This document shows, in pieces, positions 1 to 23,569 of a stretch of DNA of 64,000 nucleotides. How positions within the stretch are numbered: the stretch's first letter is position 1; each line of letters begins with the position of its first letter. Both the position numbers and the translations under genes were made by a program. Under the pieces are notes generated by a model. That model had not been told where the DNA came from, did not search any database, and saw only the letters and a program-made list of their open reading frames with translations. This DNA comes from Candidatus Hydrogenedens sp. (GTDB lineage Bacteria; Hydrogenedentota; Hydrogenedentia; Hydrogenedentales; Hydrogenedentaceae): NCBI GenBank assembly GCA_049968235.1, contig JBMFRC010000004.1:128001-192000 (forward strand), given 5' to 3'.

Positions 1-1
1 G

Positions 2-77
2 AAGATTACAAATATTAAGGAAGCCAATAAGTACTTAACAAAAGAGTATCGTAAAGGCTGGGAATTGCCTTTATAAT
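2..77 (+). CDS. 3' end (C-terminal ~25 aa) of an upstream + strand gene running off the window start; product unknown
   Basis: Open frame 2 from the window edge to TAA at 75-77, immediately followed by a strong hairpin/T-tract terminator; too short to identify. Confidence 0.2.
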
Positions 78-81
78 TTAT

Positions 82-894
82 TTAGGAACTAATTTCTAGT
101 TTTGCATTGCAAGTTAAAAGCCTTGTAAGTTCTATCTTACAAGGCTTTTTGATTTCTTCTTCTAATTTTCCAATTGAGTAAAACTTTATTTTGCCAGATA
201 TTGTATCTTTTACAATCAGACATCCTGTAATGGGGGTTGTTTCGTCTTTCCATATAAAGATTATATACTCATAAGCAGGAATAGTCCAGAAATTAAAATC
301 ATTAAGTTTTTGAGGCAGGTTCTCTTTTATTATAGATAATACCTTGTTTAAAATTTTTTTTCTTTTTTCTACTGGGGATTTCAATTTATATAGTGATTCA
401 TATACTGTCCAGAGGATTAATGATATACCTGGACTTTCATCTAGACCGTTTAAATAGTTTTTTTCGTTTAAATATTGTTTTATTTTTTCTGTTTTTCTTC
501 TGGAGTTTTCTATGTCAATTCCTACTGGGGATTTAGAATACAATGCCAATATCATCCATTTATCTGTGTGTGCAATCGAAAGGAAAATGGTTTGAGGTGG
601 GGTAGAAAAAAAATTATTATGTAATATTTCTTCTTCTCTTTTTATGGAATTATAATATCGTATATTTACAGGGTTTGTCTGCATAATGTATAGGAAAAGG
701 AGCCTACTTAATAATAATTCTTTCCTTCGTTTTTGTGATTGGCAGTTGGAAATATGGTTAGTAAATTCAGATGTAACTATTTTGTTTTTCTGAACAAGGA
801 CAGACAAATCCTGTTCTGAGAATAAATCCATAGGTATTAATAATAGGGAGATATTTTCATCCAATAAAAAATGGGGCATAAAGAAAAGACTCAT
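82..894 (-). CDS. Sfp/EntD-type 4'-phosphopantetheinyl transferase family protein
   Basis: Motifs resembling PPTase motif 2 (LSIAHTDKWMILAL), motif 3 (VGIDIE) and motif 4 (W..YESLYKL); 4-nt overlap with upstream GT-C gene. Confidence 0.5.
   Translation of the reverse strand: MSLFFMPHFLLDENISLLLIPMDLFSEQDLSVLVQKNKIVTSEFTNHISNCQSQKRRKELLLSRLLFLYIMQTNPVNIRYYNSIKREEEILHNNFFSTPPQTIFLSIAHTDKWMILALYSKSPVGIDIENSRRKTEKIKQYLNEKNYLNGLDESPGISLILWTVYESLYKLKSPVEKRKKILNKVLSIIKENLPQKLNDFNFWTIPAYEYIIFIWKDETTPITGCLIVKDTISGKIKFYSIGKLEEEIKKPCKIELTRLLTCNAKLEISS
116..150. terminator. Rho-independent terminator hairpin (aaaagccttgtaag / cttacaaggctttt stem, 6-nt loop) followed by T-run on + strand
   Basis: Perfect 14-bp inverted repeat 116-129/136-149 followed by ttttt; downstream of the + strand partial ORF. 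It lies inside the last ~15 codons of the minus-strand ORF 82..894. Confidence 0.5.
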
Positions 895-2447
895 TTCTTC
901 CTTTCATATATATGTAATGCTCTACCGGAAGGCAAAATATATTGTTTGTAAACATAGTTCTTTTGAAATTCTGCTTCTACAGCCATTTCACGGTCACTTA
1001 CAAATCGAGGTTCTTTATTTCCCGTAGCAGAGCCGAACATAATATAATCGGGTTTTCTTGAAAGGACATACTTTCCATCCCCTTTTTCATGTCCTGCAAA
1101 ACCTTTTCCTAATGTTTTTATCTCTCTATGAGCTATATGTTCATCATTAAGACCTAACATATCAATTATCTTTAAATGTGAATAATAAGCGACACTTCCC
1201 GCTGTATTTGTAGCAAGCAGGGAATTCGGTGGAACATTATCACGGAGCCATAATCCGGTTTCCTTTCCCCTCTCAGCAACGACATCAGCCACAATGCGTT
1301 CGTAAAGGTATGGGTCATTTTTTAATTGCCACAAATTAAAAATTACAATAATAATTACCAATAATAAACTACGAAAGTATGATACGCCGGGAAGGAAGAG
1401 GGAATATGCACTTACGGCAACCAATAAAGGGGTAATGGGAGTATAAAAGCGATGTGCGGGCATACAATCTCCACCTACGGATATAACATAGAGCATATTC
1501 AAAAGAACTGCTAAACTCATCGAAAAAACGACATAACCTCTTTTCTCTAATGTTTTTAGGGGAAATATTTGAAGCATAATAAAAGGAGCCCAGATGAGGG
1601 AAGTCCCTTTCAGAAAGTAGAATGCATAAGTTAATCCTCTTTTAATTTGTTCTTTTGATGAACCTACCTTTACATAGAAAGTATTGGGTAGTAACCAACC
1701 ATAATAGTTATATCTCCATATAAAATAGGGAATAAATACAAGGGAAAATCCTAATATGATAAATATAGGATTAAAGTATTGCTTTTCTTTGAAGGCGTGA
1801 AGAAATGAACAAAAGACAAGAACAGGGAGAATTATTCCTGCATCAGGACGTGACATCACTGCGAGGGCTATTACAACTCCCACAAGGAAATAACCCGATA
1901 ATAATTCTTTATTCCGTGAAATGAAAGCACCAAATAACAATATCGACAGGAAAATTAAAAAGGCGGTCATACTTGTTTCCATACCGCTCATAGCCCAGGA
2001 AGTAAAAGCACCCATAGAGCCTAAAATTAAAACACCTGCAACAGAAACGAGCCAATGCGTTCCTTTAATAATTTTATGGATGCAGGACATTAGAAATATA
2101 GTAATAAATGTAAATAGAACACCCAGAATTTTTGATGTTATAGGCAAATCCAAGCCTATTTTATGTAGTCCCGCTAATAATAGGACCCATAAAAAGCAGG
2201 TATAGCCCTCTACATATTCACCTTCGTTATAGACAATACCTTTTCCTTCGGAAAAATTTTCTGCATACCGAAATGCAATATATGCATCGTCTAATGTCCA
2301 TGGTTGTAAGTAATAGTTATACAAAGATACTAATATTAATGAAATACCAAGAGATATAAGGATAATGAACTCTCCATAACGGGAAATATTAAGTTTTTCC
2401 TTTTTCTCACCTATCTTAAAAAAGCGGAAATTTTCATAAGAATTCAT
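891..2447 (-). CDS. GT-C fold membrane glycosyltransferase (ArnT/PMT-like, polyprenyl-phosphate-sugar dependent), about 11-12 TM helices plus C-terminal soluble domain
   Basis: N-terminal TM helix followed by acidic loop motif DDAYIAFRYAENF typical of GT-C first periplasmic loop; many TM segments; ~110-aa hydrophilic C-terminus. Confidence 0.6.
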   Translation of the reverse strand: MNSYENFRFFKIGEKKEKLNISRYGEFIILISLGISLILVSLYNYYLQPWTLDDAYIAFRYAENFSEGKGIVYNEGEYVEGYTCFLWVLLLAGLHKIGLDLPITSKILGVLFTFITIFLMSCIHKIIKGTHWLVSVAGVLILGSMGAFTSWAMSGMETSMTAFLIFLSILLFGAFISRNKELLSGYFLVGVVIALAVMSRPDAGIILPVLVFCSFLHAFKEKQYFNPIFIILGFSLVFIPYFIWRYNYYGWLLPNTFYVKVGSSKEQIKRGLTYAFYFLKGTSLIWAPFIMLQIFPLKTLEKRGYVVFSMSLAVLLNMLYVISVGGDCMPAHRFYTPITPLLVAVSAYSLFLPGVSYFRSLLLVIIIVIFNLWQLKNDPYLYERIVADVVAERGKETGLWLRDNVPPNSLLATNTAGSVAYYSHLKIIDMLGLNDEHIAHREIKTLGKGFAGHEKGDGKYVLSRKPDYIMFGSATGNKEPRFVSDREMAVEAEFQKNYVYKQYILPSGRALHIYERKK

Positions 2448-2450
2448 ATA

Positions 2451-3170
2451 TTAACCTCTGCTTAATTTTATTGTCCACCATATACTATACAAGAAATAGT
2501 AAATAACATATATTAGAGATAAATAAATATAGATATGATGTTTGGGATAGTTATAAATAGATAGTATGATAAGAAATGCCCAGATTGAAACTAAAATGAG
2601 ATTTAGTAAACGGTATTGAATGGCTCTGCTGGGATATAAGTAACGAATAGGAATGAATACTAAAATAGTTAACGATAAAATTATTATAAAATTAACTTTC
2701 TCCGGGAAATCTAAAAGAAATATATAAAGCACCACAATATTCCAATACGAAGGGAAACCTTTGAACCAATGGTCTTCTGTTTTTGCATCGGTCTGGCAAA
2801 ATTGATATGCAGAAGAAAGGGTTATCAAAATTGAAGATAATAAATTTAGTTTATAAGGGACACTGTGGGTCTCATATAAAAAACTGGCGGGTACTATTAC
2901 ATAAGTAAAATAATCAACAATATTATCTAATAAAGCACCGTCGAAATTAGGGAGGACATCTTTTACCTTAAATGCACGAGCCAGGATACCATCAATAGAA
3001 TCTATAAAAACAGAAATAGCCATCCATGTAAATGCCTGGACCCATTGATGTCTACCGATAGCAATAATTGCCAAGAAGCCGAAAACAGCACCCATTGCAG
3101 TAAGTAAATGTATCGACCACGCAAGGGTGTATTGAATGCAGGAATACTCTTTATTGTTTGTCATATTCAA
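2451..3170 (-). CDS. CDP-alcohol phosphatidyltransferase, phosphatidylcholine synthase (Pcs)-like
   Basis: CDP-OH-P transferase signature D-x2-DG-x2-AR...G-x3-D-x3-D (FIDSIDGILARAF ... DGALLDNIVDY); N-terminal AWSIHLLTAMGAVFGFLAI resembles the Pcs family; ~240 aa, multi-TM. Confidence 0.55.
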   Translation of the reverse strand: MNMTNNKEYSCIQYTLAWSIHLLTAMGAVFGFLAIIAIGRHQWVQAFTWMAISVFIDSIDGILARAFKVKDVLPNFDGALLDNIVDYFTYVIVPASFLYETHSVPYKLNLLSSILITLSSAYQFCQTDAKTEDHWFKGFPSYWNIVVLYIFLLDFPEKVNFIIILSLTILVFIPIRYLYPSRAIQYRLLNLILVSIWAFLIILSIYNYPKHHIYIYLSLIYVIYYFLYSIWWTIKLSRG

Positions 3171-3193
3171 GCAGTCTATTTATTCTCATGCCT

Positions 3194-4456
3194 TCAAGTC
3201 TTTTCAATATCATGTAATAATTTTACCTTTTTACGAAGGTAATAAAAAAGCAATAACTCAGCAAGTATAACAAAAAATACAAGGAATGTTATGTATTTGT
3301 AAGATATTGTTACTCCGTATTTATCTACTAAAAAACCAAAGATAAGACTTCCCACGACACCCCCTAATCCTACAAGCCCTTCATTAATTGAAGCCCTGCC
3401 ATGTCGGAGAACAGGGTTATTAACACTATAATAGGTGCTGGCAAAGAAAGTTAAGCCATGGTTTGCACCGATTACAGCAAAAGATATGCATATTAATAGG
3501 ATACTTTTTGTTTCTGACAAGAGGTAAAATGTAATAGCACATATCCCTTGAGAAATAATAAGTAAAGAAATGCGATGTTTCCAGAAGTAGGTCCATGCGA
3601 ATAGTAAAAACACACCCGCAGTAGTAAAAGCCATCATTGCAGATGGCCAGGAAAATTTTGTTGCGGGGTCTCCAGTAAGAATAGGACTGACTGAATTTTC
3701 AAATAAGAACCGAAGTTCATTGTTTGAAACTAATTTTTTTAGGTGTTCAGCGTAAGTAGAACGAGGAATTATTGACATTAAGTTGGCAAGAAAAACCCCT
3801 ATCCAAAAAGGATACAAAAACAGATTGTTTGTTTCATCGCCATTGTGATTACTCTCAGAATTTTGTGGGGAGTTATTTTTCAGATTATAATGGCTATTTT
3901 CATTTTGTATGAACAAAAGAAAAATAAAGGAAAGAATGCTTATAAAAAATATCAGGATATAGGGTAATCTGAAATCAATATCGTAAAGAGGTCCTGCAAC
4001 CAGTGGACTAATTGTAAAACCCAAACTCCAAGCAATATTGAAAAAAGCAAGATTTCGTTGTCTTTTAGTTTCATTTGTTTCAGTTCCCACCCATGCATAG
4101 AATGCAGGCCAGGTAATTGCCATACCTATAAAAGCCATTGCAGATAGTAGATAAAAAGCATATTTAGAAGGGAAAAAAGGATATAAGGGATAAGAAAAAG
4201 TAAAAATAATGACCCCCCATCTTGCCCATGATAATATGTTTTTTGATTTTCCCACAATCCTTGATGTTAAAAGACAGGTAATTGTGTAAACTGCCATTTG
4301 TATAGCAAAGACATTTCCGGAGATAGCCGTGTTTCCATTGGGGAGATGGTCGAGAATGAGAAAAGGCAATGCAACAATACCTGCCATAATGGCAAAATCT
4401 ACCCAAAAACCGACCTGGCATAGTAAAAAGAAGGATATAAATCTTTTACGGGACAT
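3194..4456 (-). CDS. MFS-type transporter (12 TM)
   Basis: 420 aa, two sets of six hydrophobic segments separated by a hydrophilic loop; heads a tight 4-gene operon. Confidence 0.6.
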   Translation of the reverse strand: MSRKRFISFFLLCQVGFWVDFAIMAGIVALPFLILDHLPNGNTAISGNVFAIQMAVYTITCLLTSRIVGKSKNILSWARWGVIIFTFSYPLYPFFPSKYAFYLLSAMAFIGMAITWPAFYAWVGTETNETKRQRNLAFFNIAWSLGFTISPLVAGPLYDIDFRLPYILIFFISILSFIFLLFIQNENSHYNLKNNSPQNSESNHNGDETNNLFLYPFWIGVFLANLMSIIPRSTYAEHLKKLVSNNELRFLFENSVSPILTGDPATKFSWPSAMMAFTTAGVFLLFAWTYFWKHRISLLIISQGICAITFYLLSETKSILLICISFAVIGANHGLTFFASTYYSVNNPVLRHGRASINEGLVGLGGVVGSLIFGFLVDKYGVTISYKYITFLVFFVILAELLLFYYLRKKVKLLHDIEKT

Positions 4457-4560
4457 ACTATTCTATTTCTCTATGTTGTGTGGGATATTATAGGATTAGA
4501 TAAATTAATGGATTATCGTTTATATGAAGGGAAAACTGCAAATTTAAATAACTTGCAATT

Positions 4561-5691
4561 TTATCCAATCGTTTTATGGAATCGGAATGAGGCAATAAAA
4601 AGGATGATAATCCCCATAGCTCCGAGAATTGCACCGTTGTGCCATAAATCCCAGAAACCTGCATTGCGAAGAATAATCCCGCGTAGAATTCGAATAAAAT
4701 AGGTAGCGGGGACAATCTGTCCAAACCAATAAATAATTTTGGGCATGGTTTCTTGTGGGAACATAAAACCGGAAAGAAGGAATGAAGGTAATAGTATCAG
4801 AAATGAGATTTGTAATGCTTGAATTTGATTCTGGGCAAAAGTAGAAACCAGTAATCCCATACCTAATGTAGTGAAAAGAAATATTCCGGCGAAGAAAGCC
4901 AGGAGAAGGACACTTCCGGCAATAGGAACTTGAAATAAAAATCGCATTAAAAACAGAACCGAGGCTGTTTCACATATTCCCACACCTAAAAAAGGAATTA
5001 ATTTACCTAACATCAGCCCAAAGCGAGAGACAGGTGTAACCACCAATTGTTCTAATGTTCTCTGTTCTTTTTCTTTTACAATAGCGAAAGATGTTAGGAG
5101 CATTATTACTACTTGAAGGATAACTCCGCATAAGCCGGGAATCATAAAATTTGCTGTTCTCATATCGGGATTGAATAATACGCGGGGTCGCATATCAATA
5201 GGGAACTGAGAAGGTAGGACTTTTGTTTTGTTTAATACTTTTATTGAAGCCCTTAATCCGATGGCATTACTTACATTTAAAGCCTGCATTGCCACTGTAG
5301 AATCGCTACCATCGATGAGGATTTGTATGCTAACATGTTCATTTTTCAACACGCGGTCTGTATAGTAAGGAGGAATATGGATACCGACACGAACATCTCC
5401 CCTACGCATAGATGTAGCCATTTCTTCTTCATTGTTGAAAATCTTAACAATGTCAAAATATCCTGAATTTACGAACTGGTCTGCTAAATTTCTACTCTCT
5501 ATCTTTTTATCTTGATTTAATATACCTGTCCGAATATTTTTTATATCTAAATTGACAGCAAAGCCAAAAATGATGAGTTCAATACTTGGAATAACTAACA
5601 TTAAGAAAAGACTTCGTGGGTCTCTGACAATGTGTCTTGTTTCTTTGTAAATAATTGCAAAAAGCCCTTGAAACATATCTTCACTTTCCAA
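4561..5691 (-). CDS. ABC-2 type transporter permease
   Basis: 376 aa, N-terminal TM then large extracytoplasmic domain then 5 C-terminal TM segments; overlaps upstream ABC ATPase gene. Confidence 0.7.
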   Translation of the reverse strand: MESEDMFQGLFAIIYKETRHIVRDPRSLFLMLVIPSIELIIFGFAVNLDIKNIRTGILNQDKKIESRNLADQFVNSGYFDIVKIFNNEEEMATSMRRGDVRVGIHIPPYYTDRVLKNEHVSIQILIDGSDSTVAMQALNVSNAIGLRASIKVLNKTKVLPSQFPIDMRPRVLFNPDMRTANFMIPGLCGVILQVVIMLLTSFAIVKEKEQRTLEQLVVTPVSRFGLMLGKLIPFLGVGICETASVLFLMRFLFQVPIAGSVLLLAFFAGIFLFTTLGMGLLVSTFAQNQIQALQISFLILLPSFLLSGFMFPQETMPKIIYWFGQIVPATYFIRILRGIILRNAGFWDLWHNGAILGAMGIIILFIASFRFHKTIG

Positions 5692-6667
5692 AAGAACGAG
5701 TTAAAGTCACGAAAACATCTTCAAGTGTTGGCGGAACTACTCGTAAACTCTGAATATGAAATCCTTTTTTCTGAATAGATTGTTGGAGTTCATCTTCGCT
5801 TCCCTTTTGAATAAGAATATGAATAACATCCGAAAACATGGTGGCATCCCTGACAAAAGTCATTCTTAACAACTCTCGCATGGCTTCTGTAAGTCGGTCT
5901 ATTCTGAGTTCATATCGCACAAATCCTTCTGGTGTTACTTGTGGCATCTTTTTTAATTCTTCCGGGGAACCATAAGCAATAAGTTTTGAAAAGTAGATAT
6001 ATCCGAGGTGGGAACATCGTTCCGCTTCATCCATATAGTGAGTTGTAACAAAAAAAGTCGTTCCACGTGCGGAGAGGTCAAATAAGAGATTCCATAAGTC
6101 ACGACGGGCAACAGGGTCAATTCCTGCGGTAGGCTCATCTAAGAATAACAATTTCGGATTATGAACCAGTGAACAGGCAAGAGCAAGTCTTTGTTTCCAT
6201 CCTCCGGATAAAGAACCTGATAATTGGTTCAGGTAAGGTTTGATATCTACAATATTAATTACTTCATCAATTCGCTCTTTTCTTTGTTTTCGGGGGATAC
6301 CGTAAATTTTAGCATAAAAAGTAATATTTTCAAGGACGGTGAGGTCAGCATATAGACTGAATTGTTGGGACATATAGCCAATCGATTTTTTTATTTCTTC
6401 ACTTTCAGAAACTACATCATAACCTAAAACCCTTGCTTCACCGGAGGTAGGACGAAGAATACCACATAACATACGAATTAAGGTTGTCTTTCCGGAACCA
6501 TTAGGACCTAAAAAACCGAATATATCTCGTTTTCGAACTGTTAATGAAACACGGTCAACAGCAGTGTGTACGCCAAATTTTCGGGATAATTCATTTACCT
6601 CGATTACTGCAGGGTAAACCTGCTGTGAAATGTGGTTGTCTTCTACCTGTGACATATATAGGCTCAT
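5681..6667 (-). CDS. ABC transporter ATP-binding protein
   Basis: Walker A GPNGSGKTT, ABC signature LSGG, Walker B LLFLDEPTAGID. Confidence 0.85.
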   Translation of the reverse strand: MSLYMSQVEDNHISQQVYPAVIEVNELSRKFGVHTAVDRVSLTVRKRDIFGFLGPNGSGKTTLIRMLCGILRPTSGEARVLGYDVVSESEEIKKSIGYMSQQFSLYADLTVLENITFYAKIYGIPRKQRKERIDEVINIVDIKPYLNQLSGSLSGGWKQRLALACSLVHNPKLLFLDEPTAGIDPVARRDLWNLLFDLSARGTTFFVTTHYMDEAERCSHLGYIYFSKLIAYGSPEELKKMPQVTPEGFVRYELRIDRLTEAMRELLRMTFVRDATMFSDVIHILIQKGSEDELQQSIQKKGFHIQSLRVVPPTLEDVFVTLTRSFGK

Positions 6668-7800
6668 CGTGTTAATGGGACTTTCACAGTAGCAGTCATT
6701 CCTGCACGAAGTTTACCGTTATATGAGTTAAGGGACAATTTCACAGCAAACACTTGTTGTATTCTCTCTTCCTGTGTTTGTAAATTTCGAGGAGTAAATT
6801 CACCTTCGGAAGCAATATAGATAATTTTTCCTGAAAATGTTTCATCTCTATGAGCGTCTGTAACAAAGGTCAAATTTTGTCCTATGGAAATATAACCCAA
6901 CACATAGGCAGGGACATATATAACCATTTCCAAATCGTCCGGGTTCACAATACGGATACAGGGACCCGGGGGAACAATATCTCCTTTACGAACAGATACA
7001 GACTCTACAATACCATCGATTGGCGAGTTAACAGTGCACTCTTTCCTGACTGAATCAGCCCTTGATAATTCGGCGAGGGCTGATTCTAAAGCCGATTCTG
7101 CAGAACGGATATCTTCAATTCGTGGTCCTCTTTTTATTTCATCAAACATAGCAACAGTTCGTTCCCAATTTGCTTTTGCTGATTCTATTTCTTCTTCCCG
7201 GGCACCTTTTTGAAGTTGTTTATATCTTTCATCCGCTACGCGATATTCTGCTTTTGCTTTTTCAAAAAGTATTTTTGCTTGTTCCCATTCTTTTTTAGAA
7301 ACTGCTCCTTCGTTAAATAGTCGTTCTGCTCGTTCGTAATCGCGTTTGGCTATTTCAAAGGTAGATTTTGCGGATTCCAGTGTAGCTTTTGCAGATTGTT
7401 TATCTTCTTCTCTTGCTCCTGCAAGCAAAAGCCGATATTGTGCTTCTGCAGTTTTCATAGCATTTTCTGCCTGACGGAGTTCTTCCTCCGTAGCACCTCT
7501 TTTTAACTTTTCCACCAGGGATTCGGCACGTTTAACTCCAGCAAGGGCGGATTGATACATTGACTCCTGTTGGTTACAGTCAAACTGAATTAGAGTAGTA
7601 TCTTTTTTTACGAAATCCCCTTCTTTAACAAAAACATCAATAATACGACCTCCAATTGTCGAACCTGGCGTATGGACTTTGCATTCGATTTGTCCTGAAA
7701 CTAAAAAGGAAGTTTTTTCTTCTTTGGTGCATGAGCAAAATGTAATAGAACTAATTAAAAGTATTGTAGGAATTTTTTTGTAGAAAATCTTATATTTCAT
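6664..7800 (-). CDS. HlyD-family periplasmic adaptor (membrane fusion) protein
   Basis: N-terminal signal/anchor, long coiled-coil segment rich in E/A/K/R flanked by beta-barrel-like regions; translationally coupled to ABC ATPase and permease. Confidence 0.7.
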   Translation of the reverse strand: MKYKIFYKKIPTILLISSITFCSCTKEEKTSFLVSGQIECKVHTPGSTIGGRIIDVFVKEGDFVKKDTTLIQFDCNQQESMYQSALAGVKRAESLVEKLKRGATEEELRQAENAMKTAEAQYRLLLAGAREEDKQSAKATLESAKSTFEIAKRDYERAERLFNEGAVSKKEWEQAKILFEKAKAEYRVADERYKQLQKGAREEEIESAKANWERTVAMFDEIKRGPRIEDIRSAESALESALAELSRADSVRKECTVNSPIDGIVESVSVRKGDIVPPGPCIRIVNPDDLEMVIYVPAYVLGYISIGQNLTFVTDAHRDETFSGKIIYIASEGEFTPRNLQTQEERIQQVFAVKLSLNSYNGKLRAGMTATVKVPLTR

Positions 7801-7921: not shown

Positions 7922-9253
7922 TTATTTTTTAATTTCAACGAGCCCGAAAGTCATTGATGCTTCTGCAACGACTTGATTTTCTACAGAAGCAATTACTCTT
8001 GCTTTGAACAAATCATTTCGGTAATACAACATCTCTGCTTCTACAACAAGTTGGTCTCCGGGAACGACTAAGCGTCTTAGTGAAGCATTCTCTATCCCAA
8101 TGAAATATGCTTGATAAAGTGGGGGTTCTCCATTTTCACGGAATATAAGGACAGAAGAAACCTGTGCCATGGCTTCAAGAATTAAAACACTGGGCATTAC
8201 AGGAACATCAGGCCAGTGTCCTTGAAAGAATGGCTCGTTTACAGTTACATTTTTGATACCCACTACTTTTTTCATAGATGTAAATTCTATAATTCTATCC
8301 ACCAGGAGAAATGGGTAGCGATGCGGTAATATTCTTAATATTTTGTTTACATCTAAAACAGGGATTTGTCGGTGAGCAGTGGGTCTCGGGTCATGAACCG
8401 CATAAATGCCATATCCGTTTAAATATACTTTTTTAATTTGTTTTGTAAACATGACATTTTTTTCATGTCCGGACTTGACACCGATAATATGTCCAATTAG
8501 AGGTCGCCCTAAAAGATAGGTATCTCCAAGCAAATCAAGAATTTTATGGCGAACGAACTCATCCGGGAAACGAAGTCCATCATTTAGAATTTCTTCATCA
8601 CCAATAACGACTGCACTTTCAAGACTACCTCCCATAATCAATCCCTGTTCTTTTAACATTTTTACTTCTTTCAGAAAACAAAAAGTTCGGGCGGGGGCGA
8701 TTTGAGACATAAAGGTTTCTTCGTTTACGGGGAAACTTGCATACTGGGTTCCGATGGCTACATGGTCGTATGCAATAGTCATTGTTACTCGTAATTCATC
8801 GGAAGGGAGAATATTTAAGGTAACTTCATCCTGTCTATAATAAACAGGTCTATCCACAAGCAGTGCCCTTTTTGGCTCTTCTTGTTCGGTAATTCCTGCT
8901 CTTAAAAGGCAATTCATTACAGGGAGGGCACTACCATCTCCATTGGGTATTTCTTCATTGTCGAGTTCTATATATAAATTATCAATACCTAAACCTGCCA
9001 TTGCTGCTAAGCCATGTTCAACGGTGCGGACTTTAGCACTACCAATACCTATTGTCGTTCCTCGTGAGACATCAACAACATGGTCAATATTAGCAGGGAT
9101 AGCGGGTTTACCAGCCATATCTGTTCGTATAAAAATGATACCTGTATCGGGTGGAGCAGGTTTGAATGTTACTGTGGTCAAACTTCCACTATGTAATCCT
9201 ACTCCTGAAAAAGATACTTCTTTGCTAATGGTTCTTTGGTTTTTCATACGCAA
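7922..9253 (-). CDS. lpxC-fabZ: Bifunctional UDP-3-O-acyl-GlcNAc deacetylase / 3-hydroxyacyl-ACP dehydratase (LpxC-FabZ fusion)
   Basis: N-terminal LpxC sequence (ISKEVSFSGVGLHSGS..., HEKNVMFTK) and C-terminal FabZ hot-dog (ILPHRYPFLLVDRI, GHWPDVPVMP); overlaps lpxD by 10 nt. Confidence 0.85.
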   Translation of the reverse strand: MRMKNQRTISKEVSFSGVGLHSGSLTTVTFKPAPPDTGIIFIRTDMAGKPAIPANIDHVVDVSRGTTIGIGSAKVRTVEHGLAAMAGLGIDNLYIELDNEEIPNGDGSALPVMNCLLRAGITEQEEPKRALLVDRPVYYRQDEVTLNILPSDELRVTMTIAYDHVAIGTQYASFPVNEETFMSQIAPARTFCFLKEVKMLKEQGLIMGGSLESAVVIGDEEILNDGLRFPDEFVRHKILDLLGDTYLLGRPLIGHIIGVKSGHEKNVMFTKQIKKVYLNGYGIYAVHDPRPTAHRQIPVLDVNKILRILPHRYPFLLVDRIIEFTSMKKVVGIKNVTVNEPFFQGHWPDVPVMPSVLILEAMAQVSSVLIFRENGEPPLYQAYFIGIENASLRRLVVPGDQLVVEAEMLYYRNDLFKARVIASVENQVVAEASMTFGLVEIKK

Positions 9254-13430: not shown

Positions 13431-15932
13431 CTAATTTGTTATTAATTTTACTGTATTATTATCGTTTTTTTGTAACTGATTTTCAAATTCATTTTCTATC
13501 TGAGTAAATTCCAATTTTTTGTTATCCTCGGAAAATGTAATTAGTATAGTATTTCCTTCTTTAATATCACCAATAAGTAATTTTTCTGCAAGGGGGTCTT
13601 CGATATTTTGTTGAATAGCCCGTCTTAAGGGTCGAGCTCCATATTCTTCACTACTACCAATTTGCACAAGGAATTTTTTTGCTTCAGGTGTAATTTCTAA
13701 TTTTACCTGTTTCTCCGTTAATTTTTTAGCAACTTCGGCAATCTGTATATCTATAATTTTTTCTAATTCTTCCTGAGTAAGCCGATGAAACACTAAAATC
13801 TCATCCAATCTATTTAGAAATTCGGGATTAAAAGTTTTTCGTACTTCTTCCATTACGCGGTCGCGCATTTTTTCGTATTCTTCTTCAATGGTATCTTTTT
13901 GAAATCCTAACGAAGTGGATTTTCCGATTTTACGGGCTCCAATGTTGGAAGTTAATACTATAACTGTGTTTTTGAAATCTATTTTTCTTCCACTCCCATC
14001 TGTCATTTGTCCTTCTTCAAGGATTTGAAGTAATGTGTTAAATATATCTGGATGTGCCTTTTCTATTTCGTCGAACAGAACAACTGAATAAGGTCTTCTT
14101 CGCACCTGCTCTGTAAGTTGTCCTCCTTCATCATAACCAATATATCCTGGAGGTGCACCCATTAAACGGGATACAGTAAATTTTTCCATATATTCGGACA
14201 TATCCAGTGTAATTAATGCTCGCTCATCTCCGAATAAAAATTCTGCCAATTTTTTTGCAAGTAATGTTTTACCTACACCGGTAGGACCTAAGAAAAGAAA
14301 AGACCCTACAGGGCGATTACTATGGCGTATGCCGGCTCTTGACCTTTGTATGGCTCGGGTAATAGCATCGATAGCCATATCCTGTCCGACGATAGATTTA
14401 TGTAATTCATCACGCATACGAAGTAATCGTTCGGATTCTGTTTCTCCAATTTTGGTCAGGGGAACACCTGTCCATTTGGATACGACATAAGCAATATCTT
14501 CCGAAGTTACAATTGCTTGAGAAGAATCCCTTTGTGATTCCCATTCTTTTTTCTTTTCCTGATACTGGGACTGAAGTCGGCGTTCTTTGTCTCTCAATGA
14601 CGCTGCTTTTTCAAATTCCTGATGCTTTATTGCTATTTCTTTTTCTTGTGTTACTTTTTCTATTTCTATTTCTAACTCTTTTAATTCTTTAGGACGTGTA
14701 GTAATCTGCAATCGCACTCGACTTCCGGCTTCATCCAACACATCTATTGCTTTATCCGGTAAATAACGGTCTGTAATATATTGGTCGGAAAGTTTCACGG
14801 CAGAGATAATGGCATCATCTGTATATTTAACTTTATGATGGGCTTCATATTTATCCCGGAGTCCTTCGAGAATTTTTATTGTTCCTTCTGGAGAAGGCGC
14901 TTCAACAAAAATAGTTTGAAAGCGTCTGGCTAATGCTGCATCTTTTTCAATATATTTTCGATATTCATCCGCAGTAGTTGCACCAATGCATTGAAGTTCT
15001 CCTCGTGCGAGTGCGGGTTTTAACATATTTGCTGCGTCCACAGCCCCTTCTGCGGCACCTGCACCGACAATGGTATGTATTTCATCAATAAAAAGAATGA
15101 TATTATCTTCACGTTGAATTTCTTTCATTACACTCTTTAGTCGCTCTTCAAACTGGCCTCGATATTTTGTCCCTGCAATAACAGACCCTAAATCCAATGT
15201 CAATACTCTTTTATTAAGAAGTAAATCGGGGACATTTCCATTAACAATAGATTGAGCAAGTCCTTCCACAATTGCAGTTTTACCTACGCCGGCTTCTCCA
15301 ATTAAAACAGGATTATTTTTTGTTCTTCTGCTCAATATTTGTATAACCCTCTCTATTTCAGTTTCTCTGCCAATTACAGGGTCTAATTTCCCTTCTCTTG
15401 CTAAGAAAGTTAGGTCTCTGCCGAATGTGTCAAGTGCCGGTGTTGTAGATTTTCTCCGTTCGTGCATTTCACCTTTAGAACTGGGTTTTCCATGTTCCCC
15501 AAGTAGTTTCATGATTTCTGTTTGTGCTCGATTTAAATCGACACCAAACTCGGCTAACAATTTAGCGGCGACACTTTCTCCTTCTTTGATTAGCCCTAAA
15601 AGTATATGTTCTGTCCCGATATAGCTATGATTAAAGCGATGTGCTTCTTCTGCTGCCATTTCCAATACTTTTTTGGCACGGGGAGTATATGTTATTTCTT
15701 CGGAGGTAAGTAAGGCAGGTCCCTGCGGACTCCGGTGTTCTATTTCTTGTATTAATTGTTCTAAATCTATCCCCATACTCAGTAATGCTTTTGCTGCAAT
15801 TCCTTCAACTTCGAGACAAAGAGCAAAGAGGATATGTTCGGTTCGTACATATTCACTGCCTCTTTTCACGGCTTCAGTTCGAGCAACTGATATTACATGT
15901 CGGGCTCTCTCTGTAAAGCGTTCCCACAACAT
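13431..15932 (-). CDS. clpC: ATP-dependent Clp protease ATP-binding subunit ClpC
   Basis: Clp_N repeats, two AAA+ modules (GEAGVGKT and GPTGVGKT Walker A), UVR-like linker, ClpB_D2-small domain. Confidence 0.85.
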
Positions 15933-15969
15933 TTATTTTCTCCCTAAAAATGTATTCTTTTATGAATAA

Positions 15970-17112
15970 TCAATTGTTGAATATTTCTTTAAATTTATTA
16001 GCACGCATCAAACTCATTTTTACCGTATTATTCCCATTAGAAGTTAGATTTACAAGAATGTGCCCTCCTTGAAGTTCAAATAACAGGTGCAAAGGTAATA
16101 AGGGAATTGATGCTGATGTTAAATTTAAGGAAAACCCTAATTGAAGAGCAGACCATAATTCTATAGCTTCCGCAAACTCTAAAAATCGTGACCCTTTTGC
16201 AACTCCTTCTGCTCTACCCACCATATCTTCTAATGTTAGTTTACTGGAAGTAAGTAGTTTTTGTCGTGCATCCATTTCCGCTTTTGTTATTTCACTGGCC
16301 ATGTGAGATAAGGAGAAAACAATTTCTGCCTCTGAAAAACCTAATGTATATCTATTCCCAATAACGAACAAGCTACCTACTGTTTCAATTAAGCCTACTG
16401 TTACAGGGGATGATAAGGAACTATGAAGCCCCTGTTCGATTATATGTTTGGGTATTGCCAGAGGTCGTGCATCGGCGGGGGGACCTGTTTTTACACCTTT
16501 GAGATAAAAACCTAAAGATTTTAATTTTTCTTCCCAGAGTAAGATACTTCCTGTTCTTGCTAAACCGGGAAGGTGAAGTATGGTAAATAATTTTAACCCT
16601 GTTCCAATAAAGTTTAAATCTGAAGTTAAAAAACCTAATCTTGGGTCGGTCATATAATCTACAGAAATACTCATACGGTCATCTATCTGGTTCAGGAGTT
16701 CCCATACTTTCTCTACTTGAAGTCCGGCGAATACTGTGCGGTAAGCAATATGTTCTCCTGCATTTACCATTACTGAGAATCGCTGGTCTTTACTAATAAA
16801 TGCACCTCTATGTCCAATTCCGGAAAGTAAGTCGTAAGCCACAAGAAACCGTTCTGACAGGAACAGATTTTCTCGTGGTGAAGTCCCGGCAAAACTAATG
16901 TAATCATCTATTGAAATTCCATCTAATCGGAGAGTATTTTCTTTTACTAAATCCTCGAGCCGTTGTTTCTCTTCTTCGCTCATTCTCATAGGGAAAAAGA
17001 AGCCGGCAACATTACGGCACAGCGTCCCTATAGTTAAAATCGACACGGGTGCACCGGAGATTTCTTCTTTCCACCAAACAGGTTTATTTTCGACCCATGT
17101 TTTCATCATCAT
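15970..17112 (-). CDS. mcsB: Protein arginine kinase McsB-like (ATP:guanido phosphotransferase family), divergent active-site signature
   Basis: Phosphagen-kinase C-terminal domain (DYMTDPRLGFLTSDLNFIGTGLK..HLPGL); sits between mcsA and clpC. Confidence 0.65.
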   Translation of the reverse strand: MMMKTWVENKPVWWKEEISGAPVSILTIGTLCRNVAGFFFPMRMSEEEKQRLEDLVKENTLRLDGISIDDYISFAGTSPRENLFLSERFLVAYDLLSGIGHRGAFISKDQRFSVMVNAGEHIAYRTVFAGLQVEKVWELLNQIDDRMSISVDYMTDPRLGFLTSDLNFIGTGLKLFTILHLPGLARTGSILLWEEKLKSLGFYLKGVKTGPPADARPLAIPKHIIEQGLHSSLSSPVTVGLIETVGSLFVIGNRYTLGFSEAEIVFSLSHMASEITKAEMDARQKLLTSSKLTLEDMVGRAEGVAKGSRFLEFAEAIELWSALQLGFSLNLTSASIPLLPLHLLFELQGGHILVNLTSNGNNTVKMSLMRANKFKEIFNN

Positions 17113-17115
17113 AAA

Positions 17116-17643
17116 TTAATTTTTACCTATTTTCCATGAAGATAGCATTTTTTCTAAATCTAAAATTTCATCACGTAATTTGGCTGCGGATTCATAGTCT
17201 TCTGATTTAATAGCCTGTCGTATCAATGCTTTTTTAGTATCCAGTAGAATTTGTGTCCGAACCCGTTCCTCATCATTGGCATAATTTAGTTTTTTGCCGA
17301 TATGGGAACTTCCTCCTTGAATAACCTCAAGAATAGATTCTATTTCAGGACCAAAAGTTTTGTAGCAAGTGAAACATCCTACTTTATTTTTTTCATGAAT
17401 ATAATTAATTTGCGTTCCACAAACAGAACATACAGTTTTTGTTTTTGATTTTTTTATAGTCACTTCTGTTTCCTCAAGTCGGTCTTTAACCTGTGGTTCC
17501 ACGAAATTAAAACTAAAGCCCTTCGGATTTTTCTGAATTTCGACAAGGCAATCGGGGCATAAATGTATTTCTGTTACATGCCCATCAATCACTTCCGCAT
17601 ATCGAACTGATGCAAGTTTTTTATGGCATTTTTGACAAAGCAT
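17116..17643 (-). CDS. mcsA: McsA-like zinc-finger/UVR-domain protein (McsB activator)
   Basis: Paired CxxC motifs (CQKCH...CPDC; CSVCG...CFTC) and C-terminal UVR motif (DYESAAKLRDEILDLEK). Confidence 0.7.
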   Translation of the reverse strand: MLCQKCHKKLASVRYAEVIDGHVTEIHLCPDCLVEIQKNPKGFSFNFVEPQVKDRLEETEVTIKKSKTKTVCSVCGTQINYIHEKNKVGCFTCYKTFGPEIESILEVIQGGSSHIGKKLNYANDEERVRTQILLDTKKALIRQAIKSEDYESAAKLRDEILDLEKMLSSWKIGKN

Positions 17644-20074: not shown

Positions 20075-20950
20075 TTAGGTTGTTTCTGCCAATTTTTTGT
20101 CATGTTTAATCCAGATAACACAGGAAATAGAAGTTAATACTATTATCATACCTGATATTAATTCAATGTTAAGTTTTAGTTTGTTGAGGAGAAGTTCAAG
20201 TAATGTAGTAAAAATGACCTGACTTAATCCTGTAATCGAGACCCACTGAGGTTTTCCTGTTCCATAGGCATATGTTAAAAATATCTGTCCCAATGTTCCA
20301 CTTAAACCTATTACCACGAGTAATACTCCATATTTTTCAAGAATTTCTACGAATGCAGGCATATCCGAATTTGAAAGATAGAATATACAAAAGGTTGTCA
20401 TTAAAGCAACTAAACTATAATGGCTGACAACAGTTATGGGGGTAATTAGTCCACAAAAACTTAAACTTACCATTGCAGACCCTGCACAGATTGCCCCTAA
20501 AAATGCTATAAAAATAGGGAAAAAATCACCTTTAAATTGTGGTTTTTCGATTAAATAAATACCTAAAAAAGTAGAAATAACAAATAACCAGAATAAAGAG
20601 GGTACCTTATCAGAAAATAGTATATACATAATGAGTGTAACCCAGATAGGGGTTGTTGCAGAAATTGTTACTGCATCGGTGGCGTTCATTCGTGATAAAG
20701 AATAAAAGGTACAGAGTAATGCGATAGTACCCAAAATACTTCGTAACCATAGGGAAAGTGAGGAAAATATTATTACTTTTTCTTTACGGATAAAAGCGAC
20801 TGTAACAACGAAAATAAATGTGGGAGCAATACGAAAAAAAGCAACGGTAGTCCATGAAAGGTTATTTCCAATCATGCTTCCACAAACAGCCATTATGGCA
20901 AAACAAAAAGCGGAACACAACATATAAAAGTATGGGGATAACAATTTCAT
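20075..20950 (-). CDS. EamA/DMT-family membrane transporter
   Basis: 291 aa, ~10 TM helices in two repeated halves. Confidence 0.55.
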   Translation of the reverse strand: MKLLSPYFYMLCSAFCFAIMAVCGSMIGNNLSWTTVAFFRIAPTFIFVVTVAFIRKEKVIIFSSLSLWLRSILGTIALLCTFYSLSRMNATDAVTISATTPIWVTLIMYILFSDKVPSLFWLFVISTFLGIYLIEKPQFKGDFFPIFIAFLGAICAGSAMVSLSFCGLITPITVVSHYSLVALMTTFCIFYLSNSDMPAFVEILEKYGVLLVVIGLSGTLGQIFLTYAYGTGKPQWVSITGLSQVIFTTLLELLLNKLKLNIELISGMIIVLTSISCVIWIKHDKKLAETT

Positions 20951-22825: not shown

Positions 22826-23569
22826 CTATTTTTTATCAGAGCGTTTTGTAAATATAAAATAAAGGATGGTTTTAAGGATCCGGAAGGAGTCATAAAATTT
22901 GCGGAAATGGGAAGAGCGGTTTTTTTCTTCATAAATGGATGGTATGGGGATAGTTCCTATGTTTCTTTTTTGCTTTAAAGCCAGAAGTAGTATCCATGTT
23001 TCCGTTTCATATCTACCGGGGGGAATTTTTTCAATAATTTCTTGTGCAAATGAACGGGAATACAAACGGAAACCGCATTGTGTATCTGATAAAGGGCATT
23101 TTGCTAATATACGGAGAAGATATTGGGTTATGTAATTACCCAATTTGCTGGGTAAAGGTGTTTTTTCAGGGCTAAGGTCACGCTGTCCAATTATAATATC
23201 CGCTTTATTTTCCTTCCATTTCTCAATAAACAAAGGGAGTAATTCAGGAGCATGTTGGCCATCTGCGTCCATAAAACAAACTATTTCATATTGAGGAAGA
23301 TTTAAAACATGTTTTAATCCTTCGATAATAGCAAATCCTTTCCCTTTATTTACAGGGAAAGAAATAACAGATACAGGCATATTTAATACCGATGCAATGC
23401 AATTATCCGTAGAGCCATCGTCCACAATATAAATGTCTGCCGGAAATATTGTAACCGCTTTAATGACTTTTTCTAATCGGTTACCTGCGTTATAACATGG
23501 AATAATAACGGCTACATTATTTTTTTGTTTCATTGTATATTCTTGATTATATTCTTTGTTAATCTGCAT
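22826..23569 (-). CDS. GT2-family glycosyltransferase, polyprenyl-phosphate sugar synthase-like (DPM1/ArnC-like)
   Basis: VAVIIPCYNAGNRL, DDGSTDN, DADGQH motifs of GT-A/GT2 dolichyl-phosphate mannose synthase type. Confidence 0.75.
   Translation of the reverse strand: MQINKEYNQEYTMKQKNNVAVIIPCYNAGNRLEKVIKAVTIFPADIYIVDDGSTDNCIASVLNMPVSVISFPVNKGKGFAIIEGLKHVLNLPQYEIVCFMDADGQHAPELLPLFIEKWKENKADIIIGQRDLSPEKTPLPSKLGNYITQYLLRILAKCPLSDTQCGFRLYSRSFAQEIIEKIPPGRYETETWILLLALKQKRNIGTIPIPSIYEEKNRSSHFRKFYDSFRILKTILYFIFTKRSDKK

What the first reader, a model, noticed from the sequence alone, without database searches (positions are those of the whole stretch)
82..4456. Tight operon: MFS transporter, Pcs-like CDP-alcohol phosphatidyltransferase, GT-C glycosyltransferase and Sfp-type PPTase, at the tail of the lipid A/BamA super-operon
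Four minus-strand genes are separated by 23, 3 and -4 nt. They sit immediately downstream of bamA-skp-lpxD-lpxC/fabZ and an HlyD/ABC exporter.

- The CDP-alcohol phosphatidyltransferase has an N-terminus and DGALLDNIVDY motif reminiscent of bacterial phosphatidylcholine synthase. The upstream MFS could supply the alcohol substrate.
- The GT-C enzyme (DDAYIAFRYAENF loop) is of the class that decorates lipid A, LPS or lipoproteins from polyprenyl-P-sugar donors.
- A phosphopantetheinyl transferase with no carrier protein or PKS/NRPS nearby is unexpected in this context.

Together this looks like an uncharacterised membrane-lipid or lipid A head-group remodelling module.
Basis: partly seen in the sequence, partly recalled or inferred. 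Interest (0 to 1): 0.6.

Follow-up and report, generated by a model that had tools for sequence, protein, structure and literature searches.

The report
Four envelope genes, not one module

Summary
The four minus-strand ORFs and their spacing (23 or 29, 3, -4 nt) are real. They end a long co-directional gene string: mcsAB-clpC-bamA-skp-lpxD-lpxC/fabZ-HlyD-ABC-ABC2. The window is a Candidatus Hydrogenedens MAG.

- **239-aa protein:** a Pcs-family CDP-alcohol phosphatidyltransferase, not PgsA, PssA or PIS.
- **518-aa protein:** a GT-C enzyme closest to mycobacterial AftB, not ArnT. The catalytic DD motif is kept.
- **MFS:** a generic DHA1-like transporter. A choline-import role is untested.

The "single remodelling module" reading is not supported. 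The four genes occur together only in close relatives, where the whole 17-kb stretch examined is collinear. In a more distant relative only GT-C + PPTase + a convergent oxidoreductase persist. About 70 other GT-C loci and 75 other Pcs loci lack the partner genes.

Most likely there are two co-transcribed pairs: MFS+Pcs (phosphatidylcholine synthesis) and AftB-like GT-C+PPTase (envelope glycosylation). The second pair may be linked through a holo-carrier protein, as for AftD and EmbB. Interest is modest.

The parts
3194..4456 (-). 12-TM-type MFS transporter (420 aa), substrate unknown
   Evidence: Pfam MFS_1 scores 78.8 bits. The only other similarities are weak: Tet/NorA-type, 21-33 bits. It is 54-93% identical in Hydrogenedens relatives and always sits directly before the Pcs gene. 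It is absent next to Pcs in the other 75 lineages.
2451..3170 (-). Pcs-family CDP-alcohol phosphatidyltransferase (239 aa from TTG 3170, or 237 aa from ATG 3164); predicted phosphatidylcholine synthase
   Evidence: NCBIfam PhCholSynLeg gives 4e-69 and 233 bits, and four further Pcs models give 166-183 bits. PssA gives 49 bits. Pfam CDP-OH_P_transf scores 27.1 bits against a cut-off of 22. The motif DGx2ARx8Px3Gx3Dx3D is matched at D60-D86. Identity is 43.6% to Legionella Pcs and 38% to S. meliloti pcs.
891..2447 (-). AftB-like GT-C(A) membrane glycosyltransferase (518 aa) with a small C-terminal periplasmic domain
   Evidence: The AlphaFold model has pLDDT 85. The top Foldseek PDB hit is AftB 9dlf at E 1e-9; ArnT appears only at rank 26. 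The family profile matches AftB at E 5e-22, with D53/D54 aligned to AftB D61/D62 and R200 to R221. D53, D54, R200 and R333 are invariant across 17 homologues from many phyla.
82..894 (-). Highly divergent, fast-evolving Sfp-type 4'-phosphopantetheinyl transferase-fold protein (270 aa; alternative start 879)
116..149 (.). 14-bp hairpin inside the 3' end of the PPTase-like ORF. It is probably the intrinsic terminator of the convergent + strand gene.
   Evidence: The terminator scan finds it. Folding gives -21 kcal/mol with z = -5.6. It is kept with compensatory changes in eight relatives. Its two arms encode the invariant peptides KPCK and LTRL.
1..76 (+). 3' end of a convergent GFO/IDH/MocA-family oxidoreductase gene (a TAT-type signal is seen in the L004 homologue)
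   Evidence: The translation KITNIKEANKYLTKEYRKGWELPL* matches the C-terminus of the L004 protein. Homologues are 72-80% identical in all relatives and always convergent to the PPTase gene. Pfam finds GFO_IDH_MocA plus the C2 domain.
4457..4560 (-). 104-nt AT-rich intergenic gap between the ABC-2 permease and the MFS gene; a possible internal promoter region
   Evidence: Sequence read. No consensus promoter scored above background.
4561..7800 (-). Upstream context: HlyD-type adaptor, ABC ATPase and ABC-2 permease (YbhGFSR-like exporter)
   Evidence: Pfam hits. The genes overlap one another.

Best explanation
The locus is a lineage-specific, probably co-transcribed run of four envelope genes in Candidatus Hydrogenedens. 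It is best read as two functional pairs rather than one pathway.

**Pair 1: MFS + Pcs.**
- The 239-aa enzyme condenses CDP-diacylglycerol with choline at the inner membrane to make phosphatidylcholine. This is inferred from family membership.
- The MFS in front of it may bring in the alcohol substrate or move a lipid. This is inference only.

**Pair 2: AftB-like GT-C + Sfp-type PPTase.**
- The GT-C uses a polyprenyl-phosphate-sugar donor on the periplasmic face to glycosylate an unknown envelope glycan. The fold and catalytic residues are shown; the donor and acceptor are unknown.
- The PPTase-fold protein converts an apo-carrier protein, encoded elsewhere, to its holo form.
- Mycobacterial AftD and EmbB bind holo-ACP on their cytoplasmic face. 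By analogy, the holo-carrier may dock on or regulate the GT-C. This is inference.

The PPTase gene is the positional counterpart of a canonical Sfp-type PPTase in a more distant relative. In the low-GC Hydrogenedens lineage it has diverged strongly under relaxed but still purifying selection.
For: **Gene identities.**
- Pcs.
- GT-C.
- PPTase fold and catalytic residues H109, D127, E129, E166 and K170, invariant in 8 homologues.

**Co-transcription is plausible.** Gaps of 23 or 29, 3 and -4 nt here, with overlaps or short gaps in relatives.

**The genes split into pairs.**
- L004/L005 keep GT-C (48% identity), a PPTase with a 4-nt overlap and the convergent GFO gene. They have no MFS or Pcs.
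- 75 of 80 Pcs loci lack MFS, GT-C and PPTase.
- About 70 GT-C loci lack PPTase, Pcs and MFS by tblastn, phmmer and a Pfam census of 118 neighbours.

**The PPTase gene is a real gene under selection.** dN/dS is 0.28 at dS 0.62.

**Precedent for GT-C arabinosyltransferases binding holo-ACP.**
- AftD, with the 4'-phosphopantetheine arm in a TM groove.
- EmbB2-AcpM2 (also PDB 7bx8).
Against: - No carrier protein is found in the 64-kb window.
- AftB itself, the closest structure, is not reported with ACP: the term has 0 occurrences in PMC12041299.
- The PPTase family has lost the GKP motif and the Lys equivalent to Sfp K150. In three relatives (L003, L013, L014) the second metal-binding Glu is His or Phe. 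Transferase activity is therefore uncertain.
- Orthology between the window protein and the L004 PPTase rests on position. hhalign gives only 20% probability, and the NJ tree does not resolve L004 as sister to the Hydrogenedens clade.
- All four genes stay contiguous throughout the clade, so a shared function cannot be excluded.
- No lipid, glycan or expression data exist.
Confidence: 0.5

Rival explanations
1. All four genes form one uncharacterised pathway that remodels a membrane lipid or the lipid A head group. The MFS supplies an alcohol, Pcs builds a phospholipid, the GT-C decorates lipid A or LPS, and the PPTase activates a dedicated carrier.
For: - The four genes are contiguous with minimal gaps in every member of the Hydrogenedens clade examined.
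- They lie directly after lipid A and outer-membrane biogenesis genes.
- All four products are membrane- or lipid-related.
Against: - In that clade the whole 17-kb stretch examined is collinear, so contiguity is not specific evidence.
- The set falls apart in L004.
- It is never reassembled in about 145 other GT-C or Pcs loci.
- The GT-C is AftB-like, not ArnT-like.
- No known chemistry links Pcs, a GT-C and a PPTase.
Confidence: 0.12
2. The 270-aa protein is simply the organism's general PPTase. It serves fatty-acid ACP and any other carriers, as PcpS does in Pseudomonas. Its position after the GT-C gene is historical and has no functional link.
For: - It has the Sfp-type fold with the catalytic D-x-E, E and K residues present in the window clade.
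- PcpS is among the structural matches.
- No AcpS is found in the window.
- L004 carries a canonical PPTase at the same position.
Against: - An essential housekeeping enzyme would not be expected to evolve about five times faster than its neighbours.
- It would not be expected to lose the GKP motif, or to replace a metal-binding Glu in sister lineages.
- The 4-nt overlap with the GT-C stop is kept in both the window and L004.
- The rest of the genome could not be searched.
Confidence: 0.22
3. The 270-aa protein is a degenerate PPTase that no longer transfers phosphopantetheine. It survives as a structural or regulatory partner, for example of the GT-C, or as a gene in slow decay.
For: - Pfam ACPS scores below its cut-off.
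- The GKP motif and the K150 equivalent are lost, and D-x-E becomes D-x-H or D-x-F in L003, L013 and L014.
- dN/dS is raised to 0.28-0.39.
- GC content is the lowest in the region, 29.8%.
- Only about 10 sequence clusters exist in 1.8 billion proteins.
Against: - The ORF is intact and about 265 aa long in all relatives.
- dN/dS is well below 1.
- H109, D127, E129, E166 and K170 are invariant in the window's subclade.
- The model is confident.
Confidence: 0.16

Closest known systems
Bacterial phosphatidylcholine synthase Pcs (S. meliloti, Legionella, P. aeruginosa, Borrelia)
   Same: - Similar size, at about 240 aa.
- The CDP-alcohol motif has the Pcs-specific spacing DGx2ARx8Px3Gx3Dx3D.
- The best HMM matches are all Pcs models.
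- Identity is 38-44% to annotated or characterised Pcs proteins.
   Different: - It scores below every NCBIfam equivalog cut-off (233 against 440 bits at best), as expected for a distant phylum.
- It comes from a free-living anaerobic-reactor lineage rather than a eukaryote-associated bacterium.
- It is preceded by an MFS gene rather than linked to a ChoXWV or BetT choline system.
- Its activity is untested.
Mycobacterial AftB (terminal beta-1,2-arabinofuranosyltransferase; PDB 9dlf/9dlh)
   Same: - GT-C(A) fold.
- N-terminal W-x-x-DD-x-I-x-x-R ... G-x-G-x-V-x-N-x-GERVE motif, including the catalytic Asp.
- An Arg aligned to the donor-phosphate-binding R221.
- A conserved C-terminal D-x-x-G-L ... 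GH-x-K segment.
   Different: - About 20% identity, and about 100 residues shorter.
- It scores 51.7 bits against the 1050-bit equivalog cut-off.
- It belongs to a family spread over Zixibacteria, Myxococcota, Ignavibacteria, Planctomycetota, Chloroflexota and others that have no arabinogalactan.
- No decaprenyl-phospho-arabinose pathway genes are seen nearby.
- The donor and acceptor are unknown.
Sfp-type (type II) 4'-phosphopantetheinyl transferases (Sfp, AASDHPPT, PptT, PcpS)
   Same: - S-x-x-H, G-I-D-I-E and W-T-x-x-E-S-x-x-K motifs.
   Different: - About 40-50 residues longer.
- It fails the Pfam gathering score.
- The GKP motif is absent, and the Lys before the catalytic Glu is Tyr or Phe.
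- It evolves rapidly.
- No carrier protein, PKS or NRPS lies nearby.
- It is translationally coupled to a GT-C gene.
AftD-ACP and EmbB2-AcpM2 complexes (mycobacterial GT-C arabinosyltransferases bound to holo-acyl carrier protein)
   Same: A GT-C arabinosyltransferase-type enzyme is functionally connected with 4'-phosphopantetheinylated carrier protein. Here a PPTase gene overlaps the GT-C gene.
   Different: - The link here is only genomic adjacency, in one phylum.
- The ACP-binding four-helix bundle of AftD (TM13-16) is specific to AftD.
- AftB, the closest relative, is not reported to bind ACP.
- No carrier protein has been identified here.

Membership tests
Bacterial phosphatidylcholine synthase (Pcs) | CDP-alcohol phosphatidyltransferase domain | tested here: met
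   Pfam PF01066 scores 27.1 bits against a cut-off of 22, over residues 23-166.
Bacterial phosphatidylcholine synthase (Pcs) | Pcs-type extended motif DGx2ARx8Px3Gx3Dx3D | tested here: met
   The motif is D60-G61-x2-A64-R65-x8-P74-x3-G78-x3-D82-x3-D86. All of these residues are invariant in 17 homologues. The motif is as given for Legionella Pcs in PMC7867332.
Bacterial phosphatidylcholine synthase (Pcs) | Closer to Pcs than to PssA, PgsA or PIP synthase | tested here: met
   Five Pcs HMMs give 166-233 bits. Archaetidylserine synthase gives 52, PssA 49 and PIP synthase 18 bits. The only PDB relative is PssA at E 3e-4. No formal phylogeny with outgroups was built.
Bacterial phosphatidylcholine synthase (Pcs) | Reaches a curated equivalog score | tested here: not met
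   The scores against their cut-offs are 233/440, 183/350, 178/400, 169/300 and 166/400 bits. These models are lineage-specific. NCBI names the protein only 'CDP-alcohol phosphatidyltransferase family protein'.
Bacterial phosphatidylcholine synthase (Pcs) | Makes phosphatidylcholine from CDP-diacylglycerol and free choline | not testable with these tools
   This needs expression plus lipid analysis.
Sfp-type 4'-phosphopantetheinyl transferase | Two-domain PPTase fold | tested here: met
   [not shown]
Sfp-type 4'-phosphopantetheinyl transferase | Pfam ACPS domain above the gathering score | tested here: not met
   17.4 bits against 25. Five other family members have no Pfam hit at all. The family profile does reach ACPS-domain proteins at E about 1e-10.
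Sfp-type 4'-phosphopantetheinyl transferase | Metal-binding and catalytic residues (Sfp D107, E109, E151, K155, H90) | tested here: inconclusive
   The equivalents D127, E129, E166, K170 and H109 are invariant in the window's subclade. The E129 equivalent is His or Phe in L003, L013 and L014.
Sfp-type 4'-phosphopantetheinyl transferase | CoA-binding (G/N)GKP motif and the Lys preceding the catalytic Glu | tested here: not met
   The GKP position reads KREE or KKKE, and the K150 equivalent is Tyr or Phe in all Hydrogenedens members. Both are present in L004 and Sfp.
Sfp-type 4'-phosphopantetheinyl transferase | A cognate carrier protein or domain | tested here: inconclusive
   None is found in the 64-kb window by tblastn. 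The rest of the genome could not be searched.
AftB-type GT-C(A) glycosyltransferase | GT-C fold with the N-terminal seven-TM module and a periplasmic cap | tested here: met
   Foldseek gives AftB at E 1e-9 and TM 0.62, followed by STT3, PglB, AglB, ALG and ArnT. The model has pLDDT 85.
AftB-type GT-C(A) glycosyltransferase | Catalytic Asp of the DD motif at the tip of JM helix 1 | tested here: met
   D53 and D54 are invariant and align to AftB D61 and D62. The role of D62 is from PMC12041299.
AftB-type GT-C(A) glycosyltransferase | Arginines binding the donor phosphate (AftB R221, R372) | tested here: inconclusive
   R200 aligns exactly to R221. Invariant R333 lies one column from R372 in the HMM alignment.
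AftB-type GT-C(A) glycosyltransferase | Orthology with AftB (equivalog score) and a decaprenyl-phospho-arabinose donor | tested here: not met
   51.7 bits against a 1050-bit cut-off. No UbiA- or DprE-type neighbours appear among 118 flanking genes. The protein is a homologue, not an AftB orthologue.
ArnT (lipid A aminoarabinose transferase) | PMT_2/ArnT sequence family and closest structural match | tested here: not met
   There is no Pfam hit. ArnT ranks only 26-27 in Foldseek, at E 2e-4 to 9e-4. The NCBI label 'ArnT family' is generic.
Conserved four-gene module | Co-occurrence of the four genes beyond lineages where the whole region is collinear | tested here: not met
   The four genes are together only in the Hydrogenedens clade. 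L004 keeps only GT-C+PPTase. None of about 70 GT-C loci and 75 Pcs loci elsewhere carries the partners.
Known choline transporters (BCCT BetT, ABC ChoXWV/OpuB, DMT LicB) | Sequence membership of the MFS protein | tested here: not met
   Only MFS_1 and weak Tet/NorA-type matches are found.

The most novel reading that the evidence does not exclude
The overlapping AftB-like GT-C and PPTase genes could mark a GT-C glycosyltransferase outside the Actinobacteria whose activity depends on a dedicated phosphopantetheinylated partner. In this reading the fast-evolving PPTase co-evolves with a private carrier protein. More radically, it might transfer phosphopantetheine to a non-ACP acceptor. Either case would extend the unexplained AftD/EmbB-holo-ACP connection to a broad, uncharacterised GT-C family.
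Probability: 0.07. Interest if true: 0.7.

Novelty: new member of a known kind. Interest (0 to 1): 0.3.

Why it matters
The result mainly tidies annotation.
- An uncultured phylum (Hydrogenedentota) probably makes phosphatidylcholine by the Pcs route.
- It carries a member of a large, unstudied family of AftB-like GT-C enzymes found in many non-actinobacterial phyla.

The only unusual element is the translationally coupled, rapidly diverging PPTase-fold gene behind the GT-C. If that link is functional, it would offer a second, independent handle on why GT-C arabinosyltransferases associate with holo-ACP. The locus gives no support for a new lipid A remodelling pathway.

Tried and rejected
- **Single conserved module: rejected.**
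  - Neighbourhoods of GT-C homologues were examined in 80 species genomes. tblastn with all partner proteins and phmmer with three PPTase seeds found no partner gene outside the Hydrogenedens clade; outside it only L004 has a PPTase next to the GT-C. All-against-all clustering and a Pfam census of 118 immediate neighbours found no neighbour family shared across phyla.
  - The same tblastn check on 80 Pcs loci from metagenomes gave the same answer.
- **ArnT/lipid A reading of the GT-C: rejected** in favour of AftB-like.
- **Sequence link between the window PPTase family and the L004 PPTase:** hhalign gave only 20% probability. Orthology therefore rests on position and on the shared Sfp fold.
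- **NJ tree of GT-C proteins:** the deep branches are unresolved. L004 lies near the Hydrogenedens clade but is not clearly its sister.
- **Search for ACP or AcpS in the window:** nothing found. This is uninformative for the whole genome.
- **Promoter scan:** no signal above shuffles, so operon boundaries remain inferred from spacing.
- **Literature searches:** none for Hydrogenedentes plus phosphatidylcholine or for GT-C plus PPTase operons returned a relevant precedent, apart from the AftD paper.
- **MFS as a lipid or lysophospholipid transporter (LplT-like):** the only hint is a 14.9-bit match, which was discarded.
- **PRPP synthetase after the GT-C in Zixibacteria:** considered as a hint of a ribose- or arabinose-type donor. 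It is judged more likely to be the ordinary prs-rplY housekeeping neighbourhood.

Full report
**Observation.** The window is 100% identical at protein level to a Candidatus Hydrogenedens sp. MAG, on a 254-kb contig.

- Four minus-strand ORFs lie at 3194..4456, 2451..3170, 891..2447 and 82..894.
- The junctions, read directly, are TGA-23 nt-TTG (or 29 nt to the ATG at 3164, which NCBI uses), TAA-tat-ATG, and an ATGA overlap.
- An AGGA four nt before the ATG at 894 favours that start over the ATG at 879 used in one annotation.
- Upstream on the same strand are an ABC-2 permease, an ABC ATPase and a HlyD adaptor. Before them come an LpxC-FabZ fusion, LpxD, Skp, BamA, ClpC, McsB and McsA.
- A convergent gene ends at 74-76, so the 270-aa ORF closes the string.

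**The 239-aa protein.**

- It passes Pfam CDP-OH_P_transf (27.1 against 22 bits).
- Its five best NCBIfam matches are all phosphatidylcholine synthase models (166-233 bits, E down to 4e-69). Archaetidylserine synthase scores 52 bits, PssA 49 and PIP synthase 18.
- The scores are below the lineage-specific equivalog cut-offs, so NCBI names it only at family level.
- It carries exactly the motif DGx2ARx8Px3Gx3Dx3D described for Legionella Pcs (PMC7867332), at D60-D86. All motif residues are invariant in 17 homologues.
- It is 43.6% identical to a Legionella gene annotated as phosphatidylcholine synthase, 38% to S. meliloti pcs and 35% to the P. aeruginosa homologue.
- More than 3,600 homologues exist. 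Many at 50-60% identity are called phosphatidylcholine synthase by JGI.

I conclude it belongs to the Pcs family. Its activity is inferred.

**The 518-aa protein.**

- It has no Pfam hit. It has weak NCBIfam matches to AftB (3.7e-14) and to the Leptospira LA_3751/2 family.
- A 17-sequence alignment spanning many phyla is highly conserved: 51% mean column identity, with D53, D54, R200 and R333 invariant.
- The AlphaFold model (pLDDT 85) matches mycobacterial AftB best (E 1e-9). Oligosaccharyltransferases follow, and ArnT appears only at rank 26.
- The family profile hits AftB at E 5e-22. In that alignment D54 falls on the catalytic D62 and R200 on R221, while R333 lies one column from R372 (residue roles from PMC12041299).

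It is therefore an AftB-like GT-C(A) enzyme. It is not an AftB orthologue and not specifically ArnT-like. Its donor and acceptor are unknown.

**The 270-aa protein.**

- Only eight close homologues were found among 5.8 billion clusters. An exhaustive profile search of 1.8 billion representatives found about ten family clusters.
- Pfam ACPS scores 17.4 bits, below the cut-off of 25.
- The model is confident (pLDDT 86, pTM 0.87).
  - Foldseek agrees.
- Sfp aligns at E 6e-5 over the catalytic core.
- The family profile reaches ordinary ACPS-domain proteins at E about 1e-10.
- The equivalents of Sfp H90, D107, E109, E151 and K155 are invariant in the window's subclade.
- The GKP motif and the Lys before the catalytic Glu are lost. 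In three more distant relatives the second acidic residue is His or Phe.
- Against Ca. H. terephthalaticus (dS about 0.6), dN/dS is 0.28 for this gene. It is 0.065 for the GT-C, 0.053 for Pcs, 0.055 for the MFS and 0.034 for the ABC permease.

It is a real, selected, but unusually fast-evolving PPTase-fold gene.

**The MFS.** It matches MFS_1 (78.8 bits). Beyond that it has only weak Tet/NorA-type similarity. Nothing identifies its substrate.

**Are the four genes a module?**

- *Close relatives.* In Hydrogenedens relatives (GT-C 61-91% identical) all four genes are present in the same order. So is everything from skp to the genes beyond the convergent oxidoreductase. This conservation is not specific to the four genes.
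- *A more distant relative.* In L004/L005 the oxidoreductase is 72-80% identical and the GT-C 48% identical. The GT-C is followed, again with a 4-nt overlap, by a canonical Sfp-type PPTase (Pfam AASDHPPT_N + ACPS) and the convergent oxidoreductase. Upstream lie unrelated genes, with no MFS or Pcs.
- *GT-C loci in other phyla.* Among about 70 further loci from species genomes of other phyla, none has a PPTase, Pcs or MFS homologue nearby (tblastn; phmmer). A Pfam census of 118 immediate neighbours shows no recurrent partner.
- *Pcs loci in other lineages.* Among 80 Pcs loci from metagenomes, only the five from the Hydrogenedens clade have the MFS. The other 75 have none of the three partners.
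- *Closest Pcs outgroup.* L092 and L093 have a YddG-like DMT transporter after Pcs instead, and L094 a trace of one at its contig end. This hints weakly that Pcs genes recruit assorted transporters.

The data support two pairs (MFS+Pcs and GT-C+PPTase), not one pathway.

**Mechanism proposed.**

- Pair 1 makes phosphatidylcholine from CDP-diacylglycerol and choline. The MFS possibly supplies the substrate, which is inference.
- Pair 2 is a periplasm-facing glycosyl transfer from a polyprenyl-phosphate sugar. The fold and catalytic residues are shown; the substrates are unknown. It is coupled to a cytoplasmic PPTase.
- The only known biology connecting these two enzyme types comes from mycobacteria.
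  - AftD binds holo-ACP, with the phosphopantetheine arm inserted in a transmembrane groove, and needs that binding in vivo.
  - EmbB carries AcpM on its cytoplasmic face.
- A holo-carrier protein that docks on the GT-C is therefore a reasonable but untested reading.
- Against it, no carrier gene is in the window, and AftB itself is not reported with ACP.
- Rivals are a housekeeping PPTase placed here by history, or a degenerating pseudo-enzyme. The rate and motif data argue against the first and give partial support to the second.

**Novelty and verdict.** All four proteins are new members of known families. The arrangement is lineage-specific. The proposed lipid A or lipid head-group remodelling module is not supported. 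The GT-C-PPTase coupling is the one feature worth an experiment. Interest is 0.3.

Noticed in passing
window 116-149 (inside the ORF 82..894): A 14-bp hairpin (AAAAGCCTTGTAAG...CTTACAAGGCTTTT; -21 kcal/mol, z = -5.6) followed by a U-rich tract on the + strand. It lies 40 nt after the stop of the convergent oxidoreductase gene, inside the last 22 codons of the PPTase-like ORF. Its two arms encode the invariant peptides KPCK and LTRL. Eight relatives keep a hairpin at the same place with compensatory changes, and some use entirely different arm sequences. The protein's C-terminal conservation may therefore reflect an RNA terminator embedded in coding sequence.
   Followed up: partly
window 1-76 (+); L001 10373-11743; L004 9444-10805; Pirellulaceae loci L055, L057, L060, L061, L068, L071, L078, L079: A GFO/IDH/MocA oxidoreductase (with a TAT-type signal in L004) is convergent to the PPTase gene in all Hydrogenedens relatives and in L004 (72-80% identical). 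A 37-40% identical homologue lies about 3 kb downstream of the GT-C homologue in eight Pirellulaceae genomes. This could be a periplasmic sugar oxidoreductase linked to the GT-C. It could also be chance, given what I recall of the abundance of this family in these phyla (my own knowledge, not checked here).
   Followed up: partly
L003 9600-10394, L013 9543-10322, L014 1067-1819: In these more distant Hydrogenedentota the PPTase-like protein is only 20-25% identical to the window protein, although the GT-C is 61% identical. The G-I-D-I-E metal-binding motif reads D-V-H, D-I-H or D-V-F.
   Followed up: partly
L021, L022, L027, L030, L032, L040, L043 (Zixibacteria and relatives), about 200-300 nt after the GT-C homologue: The GT-C homologue is followed by ribose-phosphate pyrophosphokinase (PRPP synthetase) and ribosomal protein L25. 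PRPP is the precursor of decaprenyl-phospho-arabinose in mycobacteria (my own knowledge, not checked here). I believe prs-rplY is also a common housekeeping pair (also my own knowledge, not checked here).
   Followed up: no
GT-C loci L020, L023, L025, L028, L029, L031, L034 and others: Many loci carry a second, tandem GT-C paralogue (22 upstream copies). Sixteen loci carry a 600-730-aa protein with an N-terminal extension and a sulfatase-family domain (Pfam Sulfatase at residues 271-603); it resembles LtaS/EptA-type enzymes in layout, but membrane anchoring was not tested. Some also have arylsulfotransferase genes.
   Followed up: no
L092 2187-3098, L093 6791-7687: In the closest non-Hydrogenedens Pcs lineage (58-62% identical) the Pcs gene is followed directly by a YddG-like DMT/EamA transporter (194 bits to NF008676) instead of being preceded by an MFS. 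L094 shows only a 25-aa trace of the same transporter at its contig end.
   Followed up: partly
window 22826-23569 (-) and 20075-20950 (-): A 247-aa family-2 glycosyltransferase lies about 20 kb from the GT-C. Its size resembles that of polyprenyl-phosphate sugar synthases, a comparison from my own knowledge and not tested. An EamA/DMT transporter also lies in this stretch. Either could relate to the GT-C donor supply or to choline uptake.
   Followed up: no
window 7922-9253 (-) and 13431-17643 (-): LpxC and FabZ are fused in one 443-aa protein. mcsA-mcsB-clpC sit directly upstream of bamA on the same strand. No lpxA or lpxB follows lpxD-lpxC/fabZ; a HlyD/ABC exporter does instead.
   Followed up: no
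window 1-1000: The PPTase-like gene has the lowest GC content of the first 16 kb of the window: 29.8%, against 33-40% for its neighbours. This fits its relaxed constraint.
   Followed up: no
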